Assembly: GCA_042217505.1 (NCBI GenBank)
Contig: JBDGSN010000007.1
Coordinates: 2,700-66,699 of the forward strand
Reading direction: 5' to 3'
Source of the DNA: Candidatus Nanohaloarchaea archaeon
GTDB lineage: Archaea > Nanohalarchaeota > Nanosalinia > Nanosalinales > Nanosalinaceae
DNA: 64,000 nt
Both the position numbers and the translations under genes were made by a program. Below the pieces are notes generated by a model that was not told the DNA's origin, made no database searches, and saw only the letters and a list, made by a program, of their open reading frames with translations. Positions 1,567 to 54,330 of this stretch are shown here, piece after piece. Within the stretch, counting starts at the first letter, position 1. Every line of letters begins with the position of its first letter.

Positions 1567-1634
1567 AAAGTTAGAAAGGGAATCACCTGTGCTCGGCTGC
1601 ACGCCTGACAGGTGTGAAGAACTTACTTATCCAC

Positions 1635-1655
1635 CGAAAGATCAGTGATCTTTCG
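1635..1655. other. perfect 9-bp stem / 3-nt loop hairpin between convergent genes
   Basis: cgaaagatc-agt-gatctttcg. Flanked by direct repeats atccaccg at 1630-1637 and 1664-1671. A second 7-bp stem is at 1584-1590/1608-1614. Confidence 0.35.
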
Positions 1656-1715
1656 TCGTCAAAATCCACCGGAATATGTCGCCCGGTGTCATCTAGGAAA
1701 TCAGTTCCCATCAAG

Positions 1716-1889
1716 TTAAACCTCGCACCCAACTCTTTTTAAGCTTTCCTTAGATCGGTTCATTTGGCGTATAACGGATATAGCGACGTTTTCAACGTCC
1801 TGTTCAGAGTAGATCATCTCCTCCATAGCGGTCCTTTCCTGGTTTGGAAGATACTCAAGATGTTTGCGGTAACGGTCAAGTCGAGACAT
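1716..1889 (-). CDS. small ORF, 57 aa, unannotated in the track (possible small DNA-binding protein)
   Basis: Hand translation, codon by codon, gives MSRLDRYRKHLEYLPNQERTAMEEMIYSEQDVENVAISVIRQMNRSKESLKRVGCEV. The ATG is 23 nt downstream of a perfect GTTTATAAAC box, which fits a leaderless transcript. It shares its upstream element with orc1/cdc6 and with the 40907 ORF. Confidence 0.45.
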   Translation of the reverse strand: MSRLDRYRKHLEYLPNQERTAMEEMIYSEQDVENVAISVIRQMNRSKESLKRVGCEV

Positions 1890-1911: not shown

Positions 1912-1959
1912 GTTTATAAACAAACGAGAACTCTGCCGGTAGTTCCGGTAGCGGTTAAA
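1912..1959 (-). promoter_or_regulatory. promoter of the 57-aa ORF: GTTTATAAAC TATA box plus an upstream tandem 9-bp element
   Basis: Read in the coding direction: TACCGGAAC TACCGGCAG - 11 nt - GTTTATAAAC. The TATA box is at 1912-1921 and the units are at 1933-1941 and 1942-1950. Confidence 0.55.
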
Positions 1960-2003: not shown

Positions 2004-3023
2004 TCATTCCTGTACCATGTACTTCCGCCAGCGGCCTTCGCCCTCTGAATCTATGAGCCGGTAGTGGTCCATCTTCTTCAGGTACTTCCTTAAAGTCCGC
2101 TCGACCTTCGGCTCATCGACCTCGTCCCTGTAATCATCGTAGAGGTCTCCTGGTGCGATCTTTCCGTTCTCCTCGATTATATCGTAGAGGACTTTCTGGT
2201 GGTGGTTAAGCTTGTCGATCGACTTCGACTTGTTCTCCTTCTCGGCTTCCGGTAAAGCATCGTCCACTATCTCGCTGGTTATCTTGTCTAGGTTGTCAGC
2301 CTCTGCTTCCTCGGCAGCAATCCTCAATGCGTTGATCGCCACCCTGGCATCTCCATCAGCCCGGTTGGCTATCTTGTGCAGCTGCGAGGTCTCTATCGAC
2401 TCCTTTCTCAGACCCCATTTCCGTCTATCTTTGAGGATATCGACCAGCTCGTCTTTTGGGTACGCCGGGAAATGTATCTCCTTTGTGCCTTCAAGAGAAG
2501 ATCTTATCCTGTCATCGAAGTCGTAGAGCGCTGTTTCCTTGTTGGCGATCATAATCAATGCGGCGTTCGACTCCCTTGCGAAGTCATACAGTATCCTTTC
2601 ATCCTCTATCTGGTCGACCTCGTCAAGTATGATTATGCTCGGCCTATCCTGCATCTTCGACTGGAACTTATCCACAAGTTCATCTGTAGGAGTCCCTGTC
2701 CGGTGTATCAGGTTGACTCCAAGGTCCTGGAGTATGTTGTAGTAGACCTTGAACCGTGAAGGGTAACGCCAGCAGTTAACGCTTCCAGCGACGACGTTGG
2801 AAGAGTACTTCTGAAGCTCATCGACCACGTATTCTGCCATAGTCGACTTTCCTGTCCCCGGCGGTCCGTAGAGAAGCATGTTTCTCGGACTCCCGTTCTC
2901 CAGTAGAGGGTTCAGGTTCCGCTTGATCTCAGTCACCTGTGAATCTCTGTGGACCATCCTGTTCGGCAGAAAGTCTGCAGTAAGTACTCTTGCGTCCTCG
3001 ATCACGGAGTTCGGTCGTCTCAC
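2004..3023 (-). CDS. cdc6: Orc1/Cdc6 replication initiator
   Basis: AAA+ Walker A LLYGPPGTGKST, Walker B IIILDEVD, C-terminal winged-helix region. GTG start at 3023-3021. Confidence 0.95.
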   Translation of the reverse strand: MRRPNSVIEDARVLTADFLPNRMVHRDSQVTEIKRNLNPLLENGSPRNMLLYGPPGTGKSTMAEYVVDELQKYSSNVVAGSVNCWRYPSRFKVYYNILQDLGVNLIHRTGTPTDELVDKFQSKMQDRPSIIILDEVDQIEDERILYDFARESNAALIMIANKETALYDFDDRIRSSLEGTKEIHFPAYPKDELVDILKDRRKWGLRKESIETSQLHKIANRADGDARVAINALRIAAEEAEADNLDKITSEIVDDALPEAEKENKSKSIDKLNHHQKVLYDIIEENGKIAPGDLYDDYRDEVDEPKVERTLRKYLKKMDHYRLIDSEGEGRWRKYMVQE

Positions 3024-3084
3024 GGAACTATAATTGTTCCGCTACATTAAAAGAGATTACAGCGGTGTTCCGCTAGTTCCGGTA
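3023..3084 (-). promoter_or_regulatory. orc1/cdc6 promoter with four CGGAAC/GTTCCG-type boxes (ORB-like or operator)
   Basis: Plus strand: cggaac (3023-3028), gttccgcta (3036-3044), cattaaaa which is the reverse complement of a TTTTAATG TATA (3045-3052), gttccgcta (3067-3075) and gttccggta (3076-3084). The first two boxes form an inverted repeat that abuts the GTG start. Confidence 0.55.
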
Positions 3085-3135
3085 CCGTTACGCTAGTACG
3101 GTGCAAGAATCCCCTCAAGGATGCGATCTTGAAAA

Positions 3136-4221
3136 TCAGATATGTCGCAGGTTCAGCTCAAGTATGTCCTCATCAGCCAGTTCATGTTCTTTCCCTACTT
3201 TCTGGTCAGGGAACTTCGAGCTTGGACCAGAAACTTTCGCTGCCTTGAACCGCTCTAGCATGTCACCGGGCAGCTCTTCCATGGCTTCTTCTATGGTTGA
3301 ACCTTCTCTGAGTATCAAGGGTTCGTCCCTGTCAACTTCCCCTCCTTTTTCTTTCATGTATACACGGATTAGACCCATTGATTCGAACACCAGGTCTTTG
3401 AGCTCGTCAAGGTTTGTCCCGTTCTCCGCTGATATAAGTAGATCGTATTTTTCTTCGAACTCTTGTTTCCGGTCAGAATTCAGCAGGTCCATCTTGTTGA
3501 CGACCTTAATGCATGGAAGATACTTCCGATTATCCATCAGCCCGTCGATAAACCTGTCCAGATCCACCTTTTCCCGTATAGTTAGATTCGCATTCGTGTA
3601 GCCGTACTGGTGCATCAGGTCTTTCAGAGTGTCCTCGTCGATATCGAGGTCGACTGTTGAGGAGATCTTTATACCGCCACGACCCTTCTTCTCCACCTTG
3701 ATATCAGGAGGAGCAGTGTTTATCCTTATACCGACGTCGTGAAGCTCTTTCTCCAGCTGCTCATCCCTCATCTCCTCAGGGTCGAGAAGCATTAGAACAA
3801 GGTCAGCCGTTCTCACAACGGAGAGGACCTGTTTTCCACCGCCTCTACCATCGGCTGCTCCACCGATGAGTCCGGGGACATCCAGTATCTGTATGTTCGC
3901 ACCCCGGTGCTTCAGCATACCCGGGAAGACATCCAGGGTTGTGAACTCGTACTCGCCGACATCGCTGTCAGCGTTCGTTATCTTGTTAAGCAGTGAGGAC
4001 TTCCCGACTGAGGGAAATCCTACGAGTGCGACCGTGGCGTCTCCTCTTTTCTCCACTGCATAACCTGAGGTGTCTCCTGTCCCTTTCTGCTTCTTCTGCT
4101 TCTCTTCCTTCAGCTTGGCTATCTGGCCTTTAAGACGACCTCTCTCCTTTTCAGTGGCTTTGTTGACCGGGGTCTTCTCAAGCTTCTCTTCCAGTTCCTG
4201 TATGCGGTCTTCGACGCCCAT
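3136..4221 (-). CDS. DRG/Obg-family GTP-binding protein with C-terminal TGS domain
   Basis: G1 GFPSVGKSSLLN, G3 DVPGLIGGA, G4 NKMD. N-terminal lysine-rich coiled coil and a TGS-like C-terminus. Confidence 0.9.
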   Translation of the reverse strand: MGVEDRIQELEEKLEKTPVNKATEKERGRLKGQIAKLKEEKQKKQKGTGDTSGYAVEKRGDATVALVGFPSVGKSSLLNKITNADSDVGEYEFTTLDVFPGMLKHRGANIQILDVPGLIGGAADGRGGGKQVLSVVRTADLVLMLLDPEEMRDEQLEKELHDVGIRINTAPPDIKVEKKGRGGIKISSTVDLDIDEDTLKDLMHQYGYTNANLTIREKVDLDRFIDGLMDNRKYLPCIKVVNKMDLLNSDRKQEFEEKYDLLISAENGTNLDELKDLVFESMGLIRVYMKEKGGEVDRDEPLILREGSTIEEAMEELPGDMLERFKAAKVSGPSSKFPDQKVGKEHELADEDILELNLRHI

Positions 4222-12368: not shown

Positions 12369-12378
12369 GTTTATAAAC
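12369..12378. promoter_or_regulatory. palindromic TATA element GTTTATAAAC
   Basis: Exact 10-mer in the divergent spacer between tbp and the 12419 ORF. Confidence 0.5.
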
Positions 12379-12950: not shown

Positions 12951-13558
12951 TCTTCCACCTCTCCTGGCCTCACAAAGCCTTCTGAGCTCACTCTTTCAGC
13001 TCTTTCAAGTACCTGTTCCGGATAGTCTGAGACCGCCTTCATGCCTTCCCCTCCCAGAGATTCAATGAGGGAGGCCAGGTCTCTTGGAGCTCTAAGGTCG
13101 TATACCTTTTCTGCTCCGGATGTTATGATGTATGGTGTGTCGTACTTCTCACAGAGCTCGATGTTTCTCATCCAGTGCTTCAGAATGTGGCTCTGATGCT
13201 TGTCCGGGCTGAAAAGCTGTTTTAGATCGAAACCTATCGCAACCCTGTTTTCCGCAGCTATCTCTGCTATAACATGGTTTATGCCGGAGTCCTTCCTCCC
13301 TTTTTCAGGGCGAAGTATGATATCGATCCTTGAATCGGATGCAGCCTTTCTATTAAGTTCCTCGTCGCCGCCTCTGAAGACGAGTACGTCTGCGTTCTTC
13401 CTCTCGGACTTGATCTTCCGTTTCAGTTCGCCCCAGTCGTCGGCTTCAAGAAAAACTGTGTCGAAATCTCTGTTTGTCGCTTTCCACCCGATATCACGGG
13501 CTTTATCGCCTATCTCTTCAGAAGTCTCTTCCAAACAAAGATCGTAGAAATCTGGCAT
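12947..13558 (-). CDS. rnp3: RNase P protein component Rpp30 (Rnp3)
   Basis: PHP-like TIM pattern DVLVFRGGDEELNRKAASDSRIDIILRPE...GINHVIAEIAAENRVAIGFDL...YDTPYIITSGA. The internal ATG at 13558 (MPDFYDL) was chosen because the track N-terminus runs into the L15e 3' end. Confidence 0.8.
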   Translation of the reverse strand: MPDFYDLCLEETSEEIGDKARDIGWKATNRDFDTVFLEADDWGELKRKIKSERKNADVLVFRGGDEELNRKAASDSRIDIILRPEKGRKDSGINHVIAEIAAENRVAIGFDLKQLFSPDKHQSHILKHWMRNIELCEKYDTPYIITSGAEKVYDLRAPRDLASLIESLGGEGMKAVSDYPEQVLERAERVSSEGFVRPGEVEE

Positions 13559-32409: not shown

Positions 32410-32419
32410 GTTTATAAAC
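32410..32419. promoter_or_regulatory. palindromic TATA element GTTTATAAAC (atp operon promoter, possibly bidirectional)
   Basis: Exact 10-mer 37 nt before the atpH GTG. A GGTGA Shine-Dalgarno site at 32443-32447 lies between them. Confidence 0.55.
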
Positions 32420-40840: not shown

Positions 40841-40880
40841 CTAGCGGAACTGTCGGAACTATCTTCGCTTGTTTATAAAC
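40841..40880 (+). promoter_or_regulatory. promoter of the 50-aa zinc-finger ORF: tandem 9-bp element plus GTTTATAAAC
   Basis: C TAGCGGAAC TGTCGGAAC - 11 nt - GTTTATAAAC. About 29/40 identical to the promoter of the 57-aa ORF at 1912-1959, with the same spacing and orientation. Confidence 0.55.
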
Positions 40881-40906: not shown

Positions 40907-41059
40907 ATGAGTGGTGGAAAGCTGAGAGAAGTTTACAGTCCAGATGAGAAAGCTGCAAACGAGGAAGGGGAATGCTTCAGGGAGGAGGGGCATGCCTGGG
41001 TCGGAGACGACAAGGTGGAGATCTGCATCCACTGCGGTGCCGAGATCAGGCTGGACTGA
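40907..41059 (+). CDS. small zinc-finger-like protein (50 aa), unannotated in the track
   Basis: Hand translation gives MSGGKLREVYSPDEKAANEEGECFREEGHAWVGDDKVEICIHCGAEIRLD (C..H...CxxC). The ATG is 27 nt after the TATA box. Confidence 0.45.
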   Translation: MSGGKLREVYSPDEKAANEEGECFREEGHAWVGDDKVEICIHCGAEIRLD

Positions 41060-48737: not shown

Positions 48738-48908
48738 ATGCATGTTATGAATATAGAATCCGAACTGCCGGAAAACTTCGACCAGCTTTCAGACGATGAG
48801 AAGGTCAGGGAACTTGAATCGCTTCTTGAAAAGATAGATGACGGTTCAGGTTCAGGAGCTTTGAAGAAGAGGATGGTCGAGGAGCTTATACGAGAATACC
48901 GTTCATAG
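48738..48908 (+). CDS. small acidic ORF (56 aa) abutting the disordered-protein gene
   Basis: Hand translation gives MHVMNIESELPENFDQLSDDEKVRELESLLEKIDDGSGSGALKKRMVEELIREYRS. Its ATG directly follows the upstream TGA (TGAATG). Confidence 0.4.
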   Translation: MHVMNIESELPENFDQLSDDEKVRELESLLEKIDDGSGSGALKKRMVEELIREYRS

Positions 48909-49229
48909 ACGCATCATACCGCTCAGGCTCCAGATGCCTTTCAGGAGCATGACTCCAGCTATGATTATCTTATAATCCGCCAGTATCGGCGGGTGACCCG
49001 TGAAAAGTATGGCTGACGACATTATATCGGCTGCACCTCCAATTATGTAGAGCGGTATAAGTCCTGAAAGACCTCCCAGCTGTGGGAAGAATCCTAAAGA
49101 ACCTTTTACCAGCAGAAATGTTGCATGGACTGTCGCCACTATAGCAGGTAGAGGCGAGACAGTGTTGAAAAGCATCAAGGCAGCTGCGATATCAATCCAT
49201 CCGAGAACGTTGAAGTTGAGTGTCGGCAT
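48903..49229 (-). CDS. small polytopic membrane protein (108 aa)
   Basis: Three to four hydrophobic helices. Its ATG directly abuts the NYN gene stop (TAAATG). Confidence 0.55.
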   Translation of the reverse strand: MPTLNFNVLGWIDIAAALMLFNTVSPLPAIVATVHATFLLVKGSLGFFPQLGGLSGLIPLYIIGGAADIMSSAILFTGHPPILADYKIIIAGVMLLKGIWSLSGMMRL

Positions 49230-52860: not shown

Positions 52861-54330
52861 ATGAAACGACTTTTCATCGTACTGCTTCTTGCACTAGTTA
52901 TCCTGGCACCTACAGCCGCTGCAAAAACGACTGTTCAGGAGGTCCAGTATGCGATGAATATAAACCTGCACGACGCCTATGTCAACACTTCGATTGTTGT
53001 CAACTGTGATATCTACTGCAGCGGGATCCAGTGGCAGCTACCGGATAACAGCAACGTGCTTTTCGTGAATGACAGTGGAGGAAAAGCAGACTACAGTGTT
53101 AAAGGTGATATGTTGAGTATCTCCGGTCACTCTGCTGCAGGGATGGATTCGGAAACCTACAGGATAGGTACACATATCGACAGTAACCCGGAGGAGGTTG
53201 AGAAAGGGCTCTACAAGTGGAGGATATCTATTCCGTCGTTCTCGGATGTGAAGACAACCGGTTTCATACATGCCGACAACCTCATATCTGGTTGGATAGG
53301 ATTCGGTTTCGACTACAGCTTCAATGGAGATGAGATGAAGTTCAAAGGCACGGGTCCAACAACGGTGAGAGTTAACTTTGGAAAGGGTGAACAGAAAGAG
53401 TACTACACGGTTTTCGGTAACACGATGGAAGACCTGAAACAGCCTTATGAGATACCAGTGGGCACTCTTGGAGTCGTCCAGGATTTCCGACGTTTCCCGG
53501 TTGCGGTCATGGATTCTGGCAAGTATGATCGAACGGTTAACAAGTGGAGCGCCGGCGAGTACATAGCGGGAAGCATCCGGGTCAGAGATAACCTGGATGA
53601 GGACTTTGTACCCATACTTGCACACGAGACAGTTCACGGATTGAATGATAGACGACTGAGATGGGATGGCACTAACTCTGCTTACTTCGATGAGGGTACA
53701 GCGACCTACTTTGAATACCTGATGAAGAACAAGCTGTACAGTGACAGGGAGATCGATGTAGGTCCAGCAGCGTTATTCGGCAAGGACCGGACTTATAAAG
53801 TGAAGAAAGGCCACCAGCTCTACACGTACACTGTCCCTTCTAGAGGGGATAGAGATGAGTTATGGAACTATTACCAGGACAACAGAGATTTCATGAAAAA
53901 ATGGAATGCATACGATTATCCCCAGGTAAGGGATTTCGGTTACGCATACTCCCAGCTCATAATCCGGAACTATGTAGCCAACCGGAACGGTTCTTTAAGA
54001 GAGGTTTACCGGGATATGGACTTCGATCACAAGATCACAGATCCTGATGTAAAATGGCGGTTCTTCAGTAACCATATGGATATGACTCCGTGTGACTACA
54101 GTTCAAGGGACCGGTTCGATGCCTGTCTTGACAGGATAAACAGTTACGACTACCCGGTTTACTCCGCAGCACCTAATTCTGCCCAGAGAGAGCTGGATAT
54201 CAAGAAGGTTGAGATACCGAACAGGACGAGAACAGACTACGGCAGCAGCTTCAACACTCGGAGTATCGTGGATTCGATAAACGGTTTCATCGACTGGTTG
54301 GTCAGTTTCTTCAATTCTCTAGGTCGATGA
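52861..54330 (+). CDS. secreted M1-like gluzincin metallopeptidase
   Basis: Signal peptide MKRLFIVLLLALVILAPTAAA. LAHETVHGLNDRRLRWDGTNSAYFDEGTATYFEY fits HExxH-X18-E with an EG.ATY context. Confidence 0.7.
   Translation: MKRLFIVLLLALVILAPTAAAKTTVQEVQYAMNINLHDAYVNTSIVVNCDIYCSGIQWQLPDNSNVLFVNDSGGKADYSVKGDMLSISGHSAAGMDSETYRIGTHIDSNPEEVEKGLYKWRISIPSFSDVKTTGFIHADNLISGWIGFGFDYSFNGDEMKFKGTGPTTVRVNFGKGEQKEYYTVFGNTMEDLKQPYEIPVGTLGVVQDFRRFPVAVMDSGKYDRTVNKWSAGEYIAGSIRVRDNLDEDFVPILAHETVHGLNDRRLRWDGTNSAYFDEGTATYFEYLMKNKLYSDREIDVGPAALFGKDRTYKVKKGHQLYTYTVPSRGDRDELWNYYQDNRDFMKKWNAYDYPQVRDFGYAYSQLIIRNYVANRNGSLREVYRDMDFDHKITDPDVKWRFFSNHMDMTPCDYSSRDRFDACLDRINSYDYPVYSAAPNSAQRELDIKKVEIPNRTRTDYGSSFNTRSIVDSINGFIDWLVSFFNSLGR

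What the first reader, a model, noticed from the sequence alone, without database searches (positions are those of the whole stretch)
40841..40880. Tandem 9-bp element TA[GC]CGGAAC at fixed distance upstream of the TATA box, shared by three promoters
Three promoters read the same way along the coding strand:
- Before the 50-aa zinc-finger ORF: TAGCGGAAC TGTCGGAAC - 11 nt - GTTTATAAAC (40842-40880).
- Before the 57-aa ORF: TACCGGAAC TACCGGCAG - 11 nt - GTTTATAAAC (reverse complement of 1912-1950).
- Before orc1/cdc6: TACCGGAAC TAGCGGAAC - 12 nt - TCTTTTAATG (reverse complement of 3045-3084).

Orientation relative to the gene, the head-to-tail 9-bp periodicity and the spacing to the TATA box are the same in all three. 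The two small-ORF promoters are about 29/40 identical over the whole element.

The exact 9-mer TAGCGGAAC occurs three times, at 3036-3044, 3067-3075 and 40842-40850. About 0.5 occurrences are expected on both strands of 64 kb. All three are in promoters.

This looks like a binding site for one factor that co-regulates the replication initiator and two unannotated micro-proteins. That would be a candidate cell-cycle or replication regulon.
Basis: seen in the sequence. Interest (0 to 1): 0.7.

Follow-up and report, generated by a model that had tools for sequence, protein, structure and literature searches.

The report
Conserved CGGAA-box promoter element, Nanohaloarchaea
Two head-to-tail 9-bp "CGGAA" boxes about 12-14 bp upstream of the TATA box form a real, conserved control element shared by the replication-initiator gene orc1 and two tiny protein genes of a nanohaloarchaeon; the initiator itself, or else a dedicated regulator, probably binds it and couples their expression.

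Summary
A weight matrix built only from other genomes ranks the three window sites 1-3 (23.2-24.5 bits). The next hit scores 15.2 and lies in coding DNA.

The window is a Nanohaloarchaeota (DPANN) chromosome. The tandem boxes keep their position and orientation upstream of BRE/TATA in orthologous orc1 promoters and in the promoters of both micro-protein families. This includes a Zn-micro-protein homologue in a different genomic context. Box pairs also precede short-type orc1 genes of only 36-52% identity, including high-GC haloarchaeal loci.

A third box lies directly after the TATA box, and a fourth, inverted box overlaps the leaderless GTG start. Together they form GGAA-N9-TTCC, an operator-like pair.

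The box resembles the core of haloarchaeal origin recognition boxes (CAGCGGAAAC). My best reading (about 0.45) is that Orc1/Cdc6 itself binds these boxes, activating from the upstream pair and repressing its own gene at the downstream pair. A separate transcription factor is nearly as likely (about 0.37).

No AT-rich unwinding element or canonical ORB is present, so the element is a promoter module and not a classical origin. No binding or expression data exist.

The parts
3067..3084 (-). orc1 promoter, tandem boxes 1-2 (TACCGGAAC TAGCGGAAC), about -61 to -44 from the inferred TSS
   Evidence: 24.5 bits. Conserved in 7 of 8 window-clade orthologues. Box pairs also precede orc1 at 36-52% Orc1 identity.
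3045..3054 (-). orc1 TATA-like box (TCTTTTAATG)
   Evidence: Aligns with TTTTAAAC or ATTATAAAC in the orthologues. It lies 29 nt upstream of the invariant GTG, which fits a leaderless mRNA (inference).
3036..3044 (-). orc1 box 3 (TAGCGGAAC), directly downstream of the TATA box (about -21 to -13)
   Evidence: TA.CGGAA is invariant in all 8 orthologues.
3020..3028 (+). orc1 box 4, inverted (reads GTTCCGTGA on the gene strand). It overlaps the TSS and GTG start, and with box 3 forms CGGAAC-N7-GTTCCG (GGAA-N9-TTCC).
   Evidence: TTCCGTGAGA is invariant in 8 of 8 orthologues. The TTCC lies upstream of the start codon, so coding constraint does not explain it.
2004..3023 (-). orc1/cdc6 gene (339 aa, GTG start)
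   Evidence: AAA_22, Cdc6_lid. The homologues are named Nanohaloarchaea Orc1/Cdc6.
1933..1950 (-). Tandem boxes of the 57-aa ORF promoter (TACCGGAAC TACCGGCAG), about -60 to -43
   Evidence: 23.2 bits. Conserved in L081-L083, L091, L092, L094 and L095.
1912..1921 (-). Palindromic TATA box GTTTATAAAC, preceded by the conserved TCGTTT (BRE region)
   Evidence: TTTATAA and CG.TT are invariant in 10 promoters.
1716..1889 (-). 57-aa micro-protein gene (family motif YLxYLPEKEREA...IIRQxNR)
   Evidence: AlphaFold2 predicts three helices with pLDDT 84. No Pfam or PDB relative was found.
40842..40859 (+). Tandem boxes of the 50-aa Zn-finger ORF promoter (TAGCGGAAC TGTCGGAAC)
   Evidence: 23.3 bits. The only homologue (L086) lies in another genomic context but has the same promoter: TACCGGAAC TTCCGGCAA...TCGTTTCTTTATAAT.
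40871..40880 (+). TATA box GTTTATAAAC of the Zn-finger ORF
40907..41059 (+). 50-aa micro-protein gene with a conserved core, CFREEGHAWVGDDxVExCIHCG (C-H-C-C)
   Evidence: The AlphaFold2 model of the C-terminal half shows short beta strands with pLDDT 75-80.

Best explanation
The 9-bp CGGAA boxes are recognition units for one sequence-specific DNA-binding protein that binds each unit with a defined polarity. I think this protein is most likely Orc1/Cdc6 itself, so the boxes would be compact ORB-like 'initiator boxes' built into promoters.

Proposed mechanism:
- Two head-to-tail units sit at about -60 to -43, just upstream of BRE/TATA, in the promoters of orc1, the 57-aa gene and the 50-aa Zn-finger gene. 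From there the bound protein would help recruit TFB/TBP and so activate transcription.
[quoted passage not shown] Occupancy at higher protein levels would block RNA polymerase, giving negative autoregulation.
- The result would couple initiator level to the expression of a few micro-proteins, much as DnaA boxes do in bacteria and the Orc1-2 DDRE does in Sulfolobales.

Shown: the element, its conservation, its geometry and its linkage to orc1.
Inferred: binding, the identity of the binder, the direction of regulation and the transcription start sites.
For: - The element is real and rare.
- Register, orientation and the 12-14 nt distance to TATA are conserved in orthologous orc1 promoters and in both micro-protein families, while the flanking DNA diverges.
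- The Zn-ORF homologue keeps the element in a different locus.
- The only gene common to all clades that carry the boxes is orc1. Box pairs precede orc1 in the window clade, in the 50% clade (L098-L101) and in short-type orc1 genes of GC 50-69% loci (L102-L110). They recur in the intergenic region just downstream of orc1. Published haloarchaeal ORBs show the same pattern of flanking orc genes on both sides with linkage specificity (PMC3528665).
- The box TA[GC]CGGAAC resembles published haloarchaeal ORB cores: TAACAGCGGAAACAGTGGGG and GTTTCACCGGAAAC.
- Boxes in both orientations imply a monomeric, polar binder, as Orc1 is on ORBs.
- Boxes 3 and 4 lie over the core promoter of the binder's own gene, the classic layout for autoregulation.
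- There is a precedent. Orc1-2 of Saccharolobus binds a short asymmetric motif in its own promoter and in a regulon (PMC9738581).
- Unrelated orc loci lack the motif.
Against: - No binding data exist.
- A 9-bp period is too tight for two full Orc1 monomers with the usual footprint of 20 bp or more. Either one monomer spans both boxes, or only the winged-helix domains bind.
- The canonical ORB 13-mer is not enriched. There is no G-string and no AT-rich unwinding element next to the boxes in the window.
- The strict spacing to TATA and the site 38 kb from orc1 are what a conventional transcription factor would give.
- The L115, L116, L117 and L118 orc1 promoters lack the boxes, although their Orc1 recognition helix is similar. 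Box presence does not co-vary with winged-helix or wing sequence.
- L115 and L118 still have a box promoter about 580 bp downstream of orc1.
Confidence: 0.45

Rival explanations
1. A dedicated transcription factor other than Orc1, for example a small winged-helix or HTH protein, binds the boxes. It would act as an activator from the upstream tandem site and as a repressor at the orc1 boxes 3 and 4. This would define a small replication, cell-cycle or DNA-damage regulon.
For: - Distance and orientation relative to BRE/TATA are fixed in three unrelated genes. Known archaeal activator sites such as the GvpE UAS, Ptr2 and TFB-RF1 sit in this position (own knowledge).
- A site lies 38 kb from orc1, and another in the unrelated L086 context.
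- L115 and L118 (Nanosalina clade) keep a box promoter but not at orc1.
- There is no origin-like anatomy.
- In L103 a target is a Rad51/RadB-like gene, which points to a repair or replication theme.
Against: - No candidate factor gene is consistently linked to the boxes.
- The micro-proteins driven by the boxes differ between clades. The 57-aa protein shows no DNA-binding fold.
- The motif follows one orc1 subfamily across Nanohaloarchaeota and into high-GC haloarchaeal loci. A separate factor would have to be conserved or transferred along with it.
- The box resembles the ORB core.
Confidence: 0.37
2. The boxes are the chromosome's replication origin proper, that is, ORBs used for MCM loading. 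Their position in promoters would then be incidental in a very compact genome.
For: - The highest box density (4 boxes in 65 bp) is directly upstream of orc1, with more boxes downstream.
- The origin-associated genes oapB and oapC lie 5-8 kb from orc1 in L081 and L082.
- No other ORB-like repeat was found near orc1.
Against: - No AT-rich DUE lies between or beside the boxes in the window. The spacer between the inverted boxes is only 7 bp.
- The position is locked to TATA and the start site rather than to an unwinding region.
- An identical tandem site lies 38 kb away in front of a micro-protein gene.
- GC skew is uninformative.
Confidence: 0.08
3. The boxes are an extended core-promoter element read by a general factor such as a TFB or TBP paralogue, or they are simply copies of one strong promoter with no dedicated binder.
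For: - The two small-ORF promoters also share TCGYTT plus the palindromic GTTTATAAAC.
- GTTTATAAAC is used by other promoters in the window.
Against: - The other GTTTATAAAC promoters (12369, 32410) lack the boxes.
- The boxes lie beyond the known reach of TFB on BRE.
- Conservation is concentrated in the boxes while the spacers vary, and boxes also occur downstream of TATA and inverted. This argues against plain duplication.
Confidence: 0.07
4. The pattern is a chance similarity with no function.
For: None beyond the short length of each box.
Against: statistics; conservation across genomes down to 36% Orc1 identity.
Confidence: 0.02

Closest known systems
Archaeal origin recognition boxes (ORB / mini-ORB) bound by Orc1/Cdc6, especially haloarchaeal ORBs (PMC3528665, PMC3936714)
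   Same: - They are linked to an orc1 gene and occur in the intergenic regions on both sides of it.
- They are polar units found in direct and inverted orientation.
- The core is similar: TA[GC]CGGAAC here, against CAGCGGAAAC and CACCGGAAAC in published haloarchaeal ORBs.
   Different: - Each unit is only 9 bp, packed at a 9-bp period.
- There is no dyad 5' half, no G-string and no AT-rich unwinding element.
- Units sit at a fixed distance from TATA boxes, and one site is 38 kb from orc1.
- The canonical 13-mer is not enriched.
Orc1-2 DNA-damage-response element (ANTTTC) regulon of Sulfolobales (PMC9738581)
   Same: An Orc1-family protein acts as a transcription factor through a short asymmetric promoter motif. 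The motif is present on its own promoter and on a small set of other genes.
   Different: - The sequence and the phylum differ.
- That protein is a non-initiator paralogue.
- No tandem 9-bp architecture has been described for it.
- Here the Orc1 concerned looks like the chromosomal initiator, and binding is untested.
DnaA boxes in the dnaA promoter and the DnaA regulon (bacteria)
   Same: 9-bp initiator boxes in the initiator's own promoter give autoregulation and co-regulate other genes. This is a functional analogy, cited in PMC3936714.
   Different: The protein, the sequence and the domain of life are unrelated. It is an analogy only.
Archaeal upstream activating sites abutting BRE (GvpE UAS of Halobacterium gvp promoters, Ptr2, TFB-RF1), and position-dependent dual regulators such as SurR and TrmBL1 (own knowledge)
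   Same: - Two short direct repeats sit immediately upstream of BRE/TATA.
- The same motif placed downstream of TATA would repress.
   Different: The motif sequence, the repeat spacing (9 bp here against 12 bp for the GvpE UAS) and the lineage all differ. No regulator is identified here.
aCcr1-box of Sulfolobales cell-cycle repressors (PMC9976878)
   Same: [quoted passage not shown] This is comparable to boxes 3 and 4 at orc1.
   Different: - Its sequence differs: A(T/G)G(A)TA(G)A(T/G)TACN.
- It is palindromic and bound by an RHH protein restricted to Sulfolobales.
- It has no upstream tandem site.
NrpR operator GGAA-N6-TTCC of methanogens (own knowledge)
   Same: It is an inverted GGAA/TTCC half-site pair overlapping a core promoter.
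   Different: The spacer is 6 nt, not 9. It controls nitrogen genes and has no direct repeats. The resemblance comes from memory and was not tested.

Membership tests
ORB / mini-ORB (Orc1/Cdc6 binding site) | Located in intergenic DNA adjacent to an orc1/cdc6 gene | tested here: met
   There are 4 boxes in the 112-bp region upstream of orc1 and 2 in the region downstream. The same holds in the orthologues. One site, at 40842, is not adjacent to orc1.
ORB / mini-ORB (Orc1/Cdc6 binding site) | Sequence matches the ORB consensus (dyad TTCCA-N-TGGAAAC, with a G-string in halophiles) | tested here: not met
   The canonical 13-mer gives 21 hits at 3 or fewer mismatches against 19.9 expected, none near orc1. 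No core plus G-string lies near orc1 in the window clade. Only the 3' half-core resembles published haloarchaeal ORBs.
ORB / mini-ORB (Orc1/Cdc6 binding site) | Inverted ORBs flank an AT-rich duplex-unwinding element | tested here: not met
   The inverted boxes 3 and 4 are separated by only 7 bp. No 50-bp stretch of at least 78% AT lies in the orc1-flanking intergenic regions of the window.
ORB / mini-ORB (Orc1/Cdc6 binding site) | Bound by the cognate Orc1/Cdc6 protein | not testable with these tools
   This needs EMSA, footprinting or ChIP. Comparing the winged-helix domain with box presence was inconclusive.
Archaeal upstream activator site (UAS abutting BRE/TATA) | Fixed position and orientation immediately upstream of BRE/TATA in several promoters | tested here: met
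   The end of box 2 lies 11-14 nt before the TATA box, in the same orientation, in the 8 orc1 and 10 small-ORF promoters aligned, all but L094 of which carry the upstream pair. The same holds in distant clades.
Archaeal upstream activator site (UAS abutting BRE/TATA) | Conserved in orthologous promoters while the flanks diverge | tested here: met
   The invariant columns are the boxes and the TATA box, while the spacers vary.
Archaeal upstream activator site (UAS abutting BRE/TATA) | Binding of the factor stimulates transcription | not testable with these tools
   No expression or in-vitro transcription data are available.
Archaeal operator overlapping the core promoter (repressor site) | [quoted passage not shown] | tested here: met
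   CGGAAC-N7-GTTCCG spans about -21 to +4 of orc1 and is invariant in 8 orthologues. GGAA-N9-TTCC abuts the TATA box in the L098 and haloarchaeal clades. The start sites are inferred, not mapped.
NrpR operator | GGAA-N6-TTCC in the promoters of nitrogen-assimilation genes | tested here: not met
   The spacer is 9 nt, and the targets are orc1 and micro-protein genes.
aCcr1-box | 9-bp motif A(T/G)G(A)TA(G)A(T/G)TACN bound by an RHH protein of Sulfolobales | tested here: not met
   The sequence differs and the organism is a nanohaloarchaeon.

The most novel reading that the evidence does not exclude
In Nanohaloarchaeota (DPANN), and in a related short-type Orc1 lineage found in haloarchaeal loci, the replication initiator Orc1 doubles as a transcription factor. 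An 18-bp tandem 'mini-ORB' placed upstream of BRE/TATA would activate transcription. An inverted pair over the start site would autorepress orc1. This would wire initiator abundance directly to a set of lineage-specific micro-proteins, and in one haloarchaeal locus to a RadB-like recombinase, that may control replication or division in these host-dependent cells. It would be an archaeal counterpart of the bacterial DnaA regulon.
Probability: 0.4. Interest if true: 0.75.

Novelty: new member of a known kind. Interest (0 to 1): 0.6.

Why it matters
Almost nothing is known about gene regulation, replication control or origins in Nanohaloarchaeota and other DPANN archaea.

This element gives a concrete, testable handle:
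- a defined 40-bp probe;
- three target promoters in one genome;
- a clear candidate binder, Orc1;
- a set of conserved but uncharacterised micro-proteins whose expression appears tied to the initiator gene.

If Orc1 is the binder, initiator autoregulation and an initiator regulon would be extended to a chromosomal archaeal Orc1. ORB-type recognition would also be shown to shrink to 9-bp units that work as promoter elements.

If another protein binds, it would define the first regulon of this phylum.

Tried and rejected
- Genome-contig scan with a full-length Orc1 alignment. The tool chose the Walker-A peptide as its pattern and returned unrelated AAA+ loci. The scan was wasted, though I later used those 856 kb as a negative control.
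- Canonical ORB search, GC skew, repeat search around orc1, and a search for G-strings and AT-rich DUEs. None gave evidence of a classical origin.
- Co-variation of the Orc1 winged-helix or wing sequence with box presence: inconclusive.
- Orthologous atpD loci (L087-L090). The Zn-ORF is not syntenic there, so only one independent homologue (L086) could be compared.
- Identity of the micro-proteins. Pfam gave only sub-threshold hits. HMMER against 1.8 billion representatives gave 7 hits, one of them spurious. The AlphaFold2 model had no Foldseek match in the PDB. The 57-aa protein therefore gains no support as the regulator.
- Viral-contig scans with two patterns: 0 hits, then 14 hits that are coding repeats or low-GC phage DNA unrelated to this element.
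- Rfam on the window and the Nanosalina loci: nothing.
- Literature and supplement searches for the motif itself: only primers, or no match.
- Candidate sites at 13015, 48757 and 53964/53982: rejected because all lie inside coding sequence.

Full report
**1. The observation**

- TAGCGGAAC occurs three times against 0.32 expected, and no shuffle out of 100 reaches three.
- TASCGGAAC occurs five times against 0.58 expected.
- All copies lie in three short intergenic regions: upstream of orc1 (2004-3023, minus strand), upstream of a 57-aa ORF (1716-1889, minus strand) and upstream of a 50-aa ORF (40907-41059, plus strand).

To avoid circularity I trained an 18-mer weight matrix only on 13 sites from other genomes.
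- The three window sites rank first to third, at 24.5, 23.3 and 23.2 bits.
- The next hit scores 15.2 bits and lies inside a small ORF.
- Simulated 64-kb sequences reach a mean maximum of 12.9 bits and a highest value of 20.4.

Other CGGAAC pairs, at 13015 and at 53964/53982, lie in coding sequence.

**2. Organism and context**

The proteome is acidic and the GC content is 48%. Orc1 and AtpD homologues are named Nanohaloarchaea, and the 50-aa ORF is NCBI hypothetical protein ABEJ99_00735 on a 71-kb MAG contig. The orc1 neighbourhood holds replication genes: an SSB-like OB-fold protein, an RPA-like protein, MCM and TBP. Its synteny is conserved in relatives.

**3. Conservation in the window clade**

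I obtained orthologous loci through exact-protein look-ups (L081-L085) and through a metagenome scan with the Orc1 winged-helix domain (L091-L114).

In eight window-clade genomes (75-80% Orc1 identity) the orc1 promoter alignment shows the following.
- Invariant or near-invariant columns fall in four boxes and the TATA box, while the spacers and the upstream DNA diverge.
- The four boxes are two tandem boxes upstream of TATA, a third (TA.CGGAA) immediately after TATA, and a fourth, inverted box (TTCCGTGAGA) overlapping an invariant GTG.
- L094 has a rearranged upstream region. It lost the tandem pair but kept boxes 3 and 4.

The small ORF next to orc1 (57-65 aa, motif YLxYLPEKEREA) keeps the layout TA.CGGAAC, N3, CGG.A, N5, YCG.TT, N, TTTATAA. 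This holds even in L092, where the gene has moved 1.1 kb away.

The Zn-micro-protein has a single detectable homologue (65% identity). It sits in a different context in L086 and carries the same promoter. Orthologous atpD loci lack this ORF.

**4. Deeper distribution**

Box pairs in an 8-9-bp register, followed after about 13-15 nt by a TATA-like box and a leaderless ATG, precede several more distant orc1 genes.
- They precede orc1 in the 50% clade (L098-L101). There the second box is degenerate, and the pair abuts the TATA-like box (about 4 nt) instead of standing 13-15 nt upstream.
- They precede short-type orc1 genes of 36-44% identity (L102-L110), including loci with GC 66-69% that must be haloarchaeal.

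Further tandem-box promoters occur close to orc1.
- In L098 and L100 one drives two tiny ORFs 360 bp upstream of orc1.
- In L103 one drives a Rad51/RadB-like gene downstream of orc1.
- In L102 there is a site downstream of orc1.

At orc1 promoters of most box-carrying clades, though not in L102 or L106/L107, an inverted GGAA-N9-TTCC pair recurs. It lies between TATA and the start in the window clade, and abuts TATA in the others.

Four nanohaloarchaeal loci lack boxes at the orc1 promoter: L115 and L118 (Nanosalina clade), L116 and L117. L115 and L118 nevertheless have a conserved box promoter about 580 bp downstream of orc1. An Aenigmatarchaeota orc1 (45% identity) lacks the boxes, and so do the orc1 genes in the 856 kb of unrelated loci.

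**5. Geometry and inferred mechanism**

I placed the transcription start about 30 nt after the first T of each TATA box.
- The 57-aa gene and orc1 would then be leaderless, and the Zn-ORF would have a leader of about 5 nt.
- The tandem pair spans about -60 to -43, roughly 5 nt upstream of the BRE. Archaeal activators that recruit TFB/TBP bind in this position.
- Boxes 3 and 4 at orc1 span about -21 to +4, where bound proteins block RNA polymerase.

The use of the same unit in direct and inverted arrangements points to a polar, monomer-type binder.

**6. Who binds?**

Evidence favouring Orc1:
- orc1 is the only gene common to all box-bearing clades.
- The boxes flank orc1 on both sides. This matches published haloarchaeal ORBs, which show linkage specificity to their orc gene and are used for initiator titration.
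- The box resembles published haloarchaeal ORB cores, CAGCGGAAAC and CACCGGAAAC.
- Boxes over the core promoter of the binder's own gene suggest autoregulation.
- Orc1-2 of Saccharolobus is a documented Orc1-family transcription factor with a short asymmetric motif on its own promoter.

Evidence against Orc1:
- The canonical ORB is not enriched, and there is no G-string and no DUE.
- The 9-bp period is tight for full-length Orc1.
- The spacing to TATA is strict, and one site lies 38 kb from orc1.
- Some orc1 promoters lack the boxes, with no matching change in the winged-helix domain.

I therefore rate Orc1 as the binder at about 0.45, a separate factor at about 0.37, a bona fide origin at about 0.08, and the remaining readings at under 0.1 together.

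**7. The micro-proteins**

- The 57-aa protein is predicted to form three helices (pLDDT 84) and has no PDB or Pfam relative. Its family is small and lineage-specific.
- The 50-aa protein has a conserved C-H-C-C core and a modest beta-rich model.
- Neither is supported as the regulator.

**8. Verdict**

The finding is a genuine, conserved promoter module that links orc1 to micro-protein genes in a DPANN lineage. In kind it is a transcription-factor or initiator binding site, which is a known class. The motif, its architecture and its distribution appear to be undescribed: my literature searches found nothing on it. Binding, direction of regulation, start sites and the full regulon all remain to be tested.

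Noticed in passing
window 1583-1732 (-): A third conserved micro-protein gene (about 40-49 aa, motif FLDDTGxQIPVEFE) lies directly after the 57-aa ORF. It has its own TATA box and no CGGAA boxes. It is present in all window-clade loci, so orc1 is followed by a conserved micro-protein cluster.
   Followed up: partly
L098 2865-3150; L100 1535-1820: In the 50%-identity clade, a tandem-box promoter (TACCGGAAC TGGCGGAAA ... TTTTTAATA) 360 bp upstream of orc1 precedes two tiny ORFs (about 29 and 40 aa). Both are conserved between diverged genomes.
   Followed up: partly
L115 4590-4800; L118 4597-4830: In the Nanosalina clade, a conserved promoter (GCGGAAC TGCGGAAAG TTCCGG AGTTG TTTAAATA) lies about 580 bp downstream of orc1. 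It is followed by about 150 nt with patchy conservation, no conserved ORF and no Rfam match. This may be a non-coding RNA.
   Followed up: partly
L082 9870-9935; L083 9880-9935; L092 about 3100-3155: A pair of TGTAATACA / TGTATTACA words flanks about 35 bp of AT-rich DNA just upstream of the orc1 boxes in three genomes, but not in the window. The word resembles the Sulfolobales aCcr1-box consensus, which may be coincidence. It could also be a second regulatory site or a small unwinding element.
   Followed up: no
L103 3233-7461; L116 3001-7032: The gene order orc1, Rad51/RadB-like gene, small ORF, family-B DNA polymerase occurs in a GC-69% haloarchaeal locus that has CGGAA boxes. A RadB-like homologue followed by DUF8156 and PolB occurs in a nanohaloarchaeal locus that has no boxes.
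   Followed up: partly
window 12369-12378 and 32410-32419: The palindromic TATA box GTTTATAAAC also heads other promoters, including the A-type ATP synthase operon, without CGGAA boxes. It appears to be the strong-promoter consensus of this genome.
   Followed up: partly
L081 15597-16368; L082 18361-19126: The origin-associated genes oapB and oapC (Pfam OapB, OapC), preceded by a GTPase gene, lie 5-8 kb from orc1. In haloarchaea such genes sit next to oriC1.
   Followed up: no
L098 4228-4629; window 1716-1889: In the 50% clade a DUF123 (GIY-YIG-like) gene overlaps the end of orc1. The window's 57-aa protein, in the syntenic position, gives a weak sub-threshold Pfam hit to the DUF123 C-terminus (E = 0.035).
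   Followed up: no
window 48750-48910 (+): A small acidic ORF (about 53 aa, MNIESELPENFDQLSDDEK...) lies between two convergent genes. It contains the fourth-best PWM hit, which is therefore coding sequence and not a site.
   Followed up: partly
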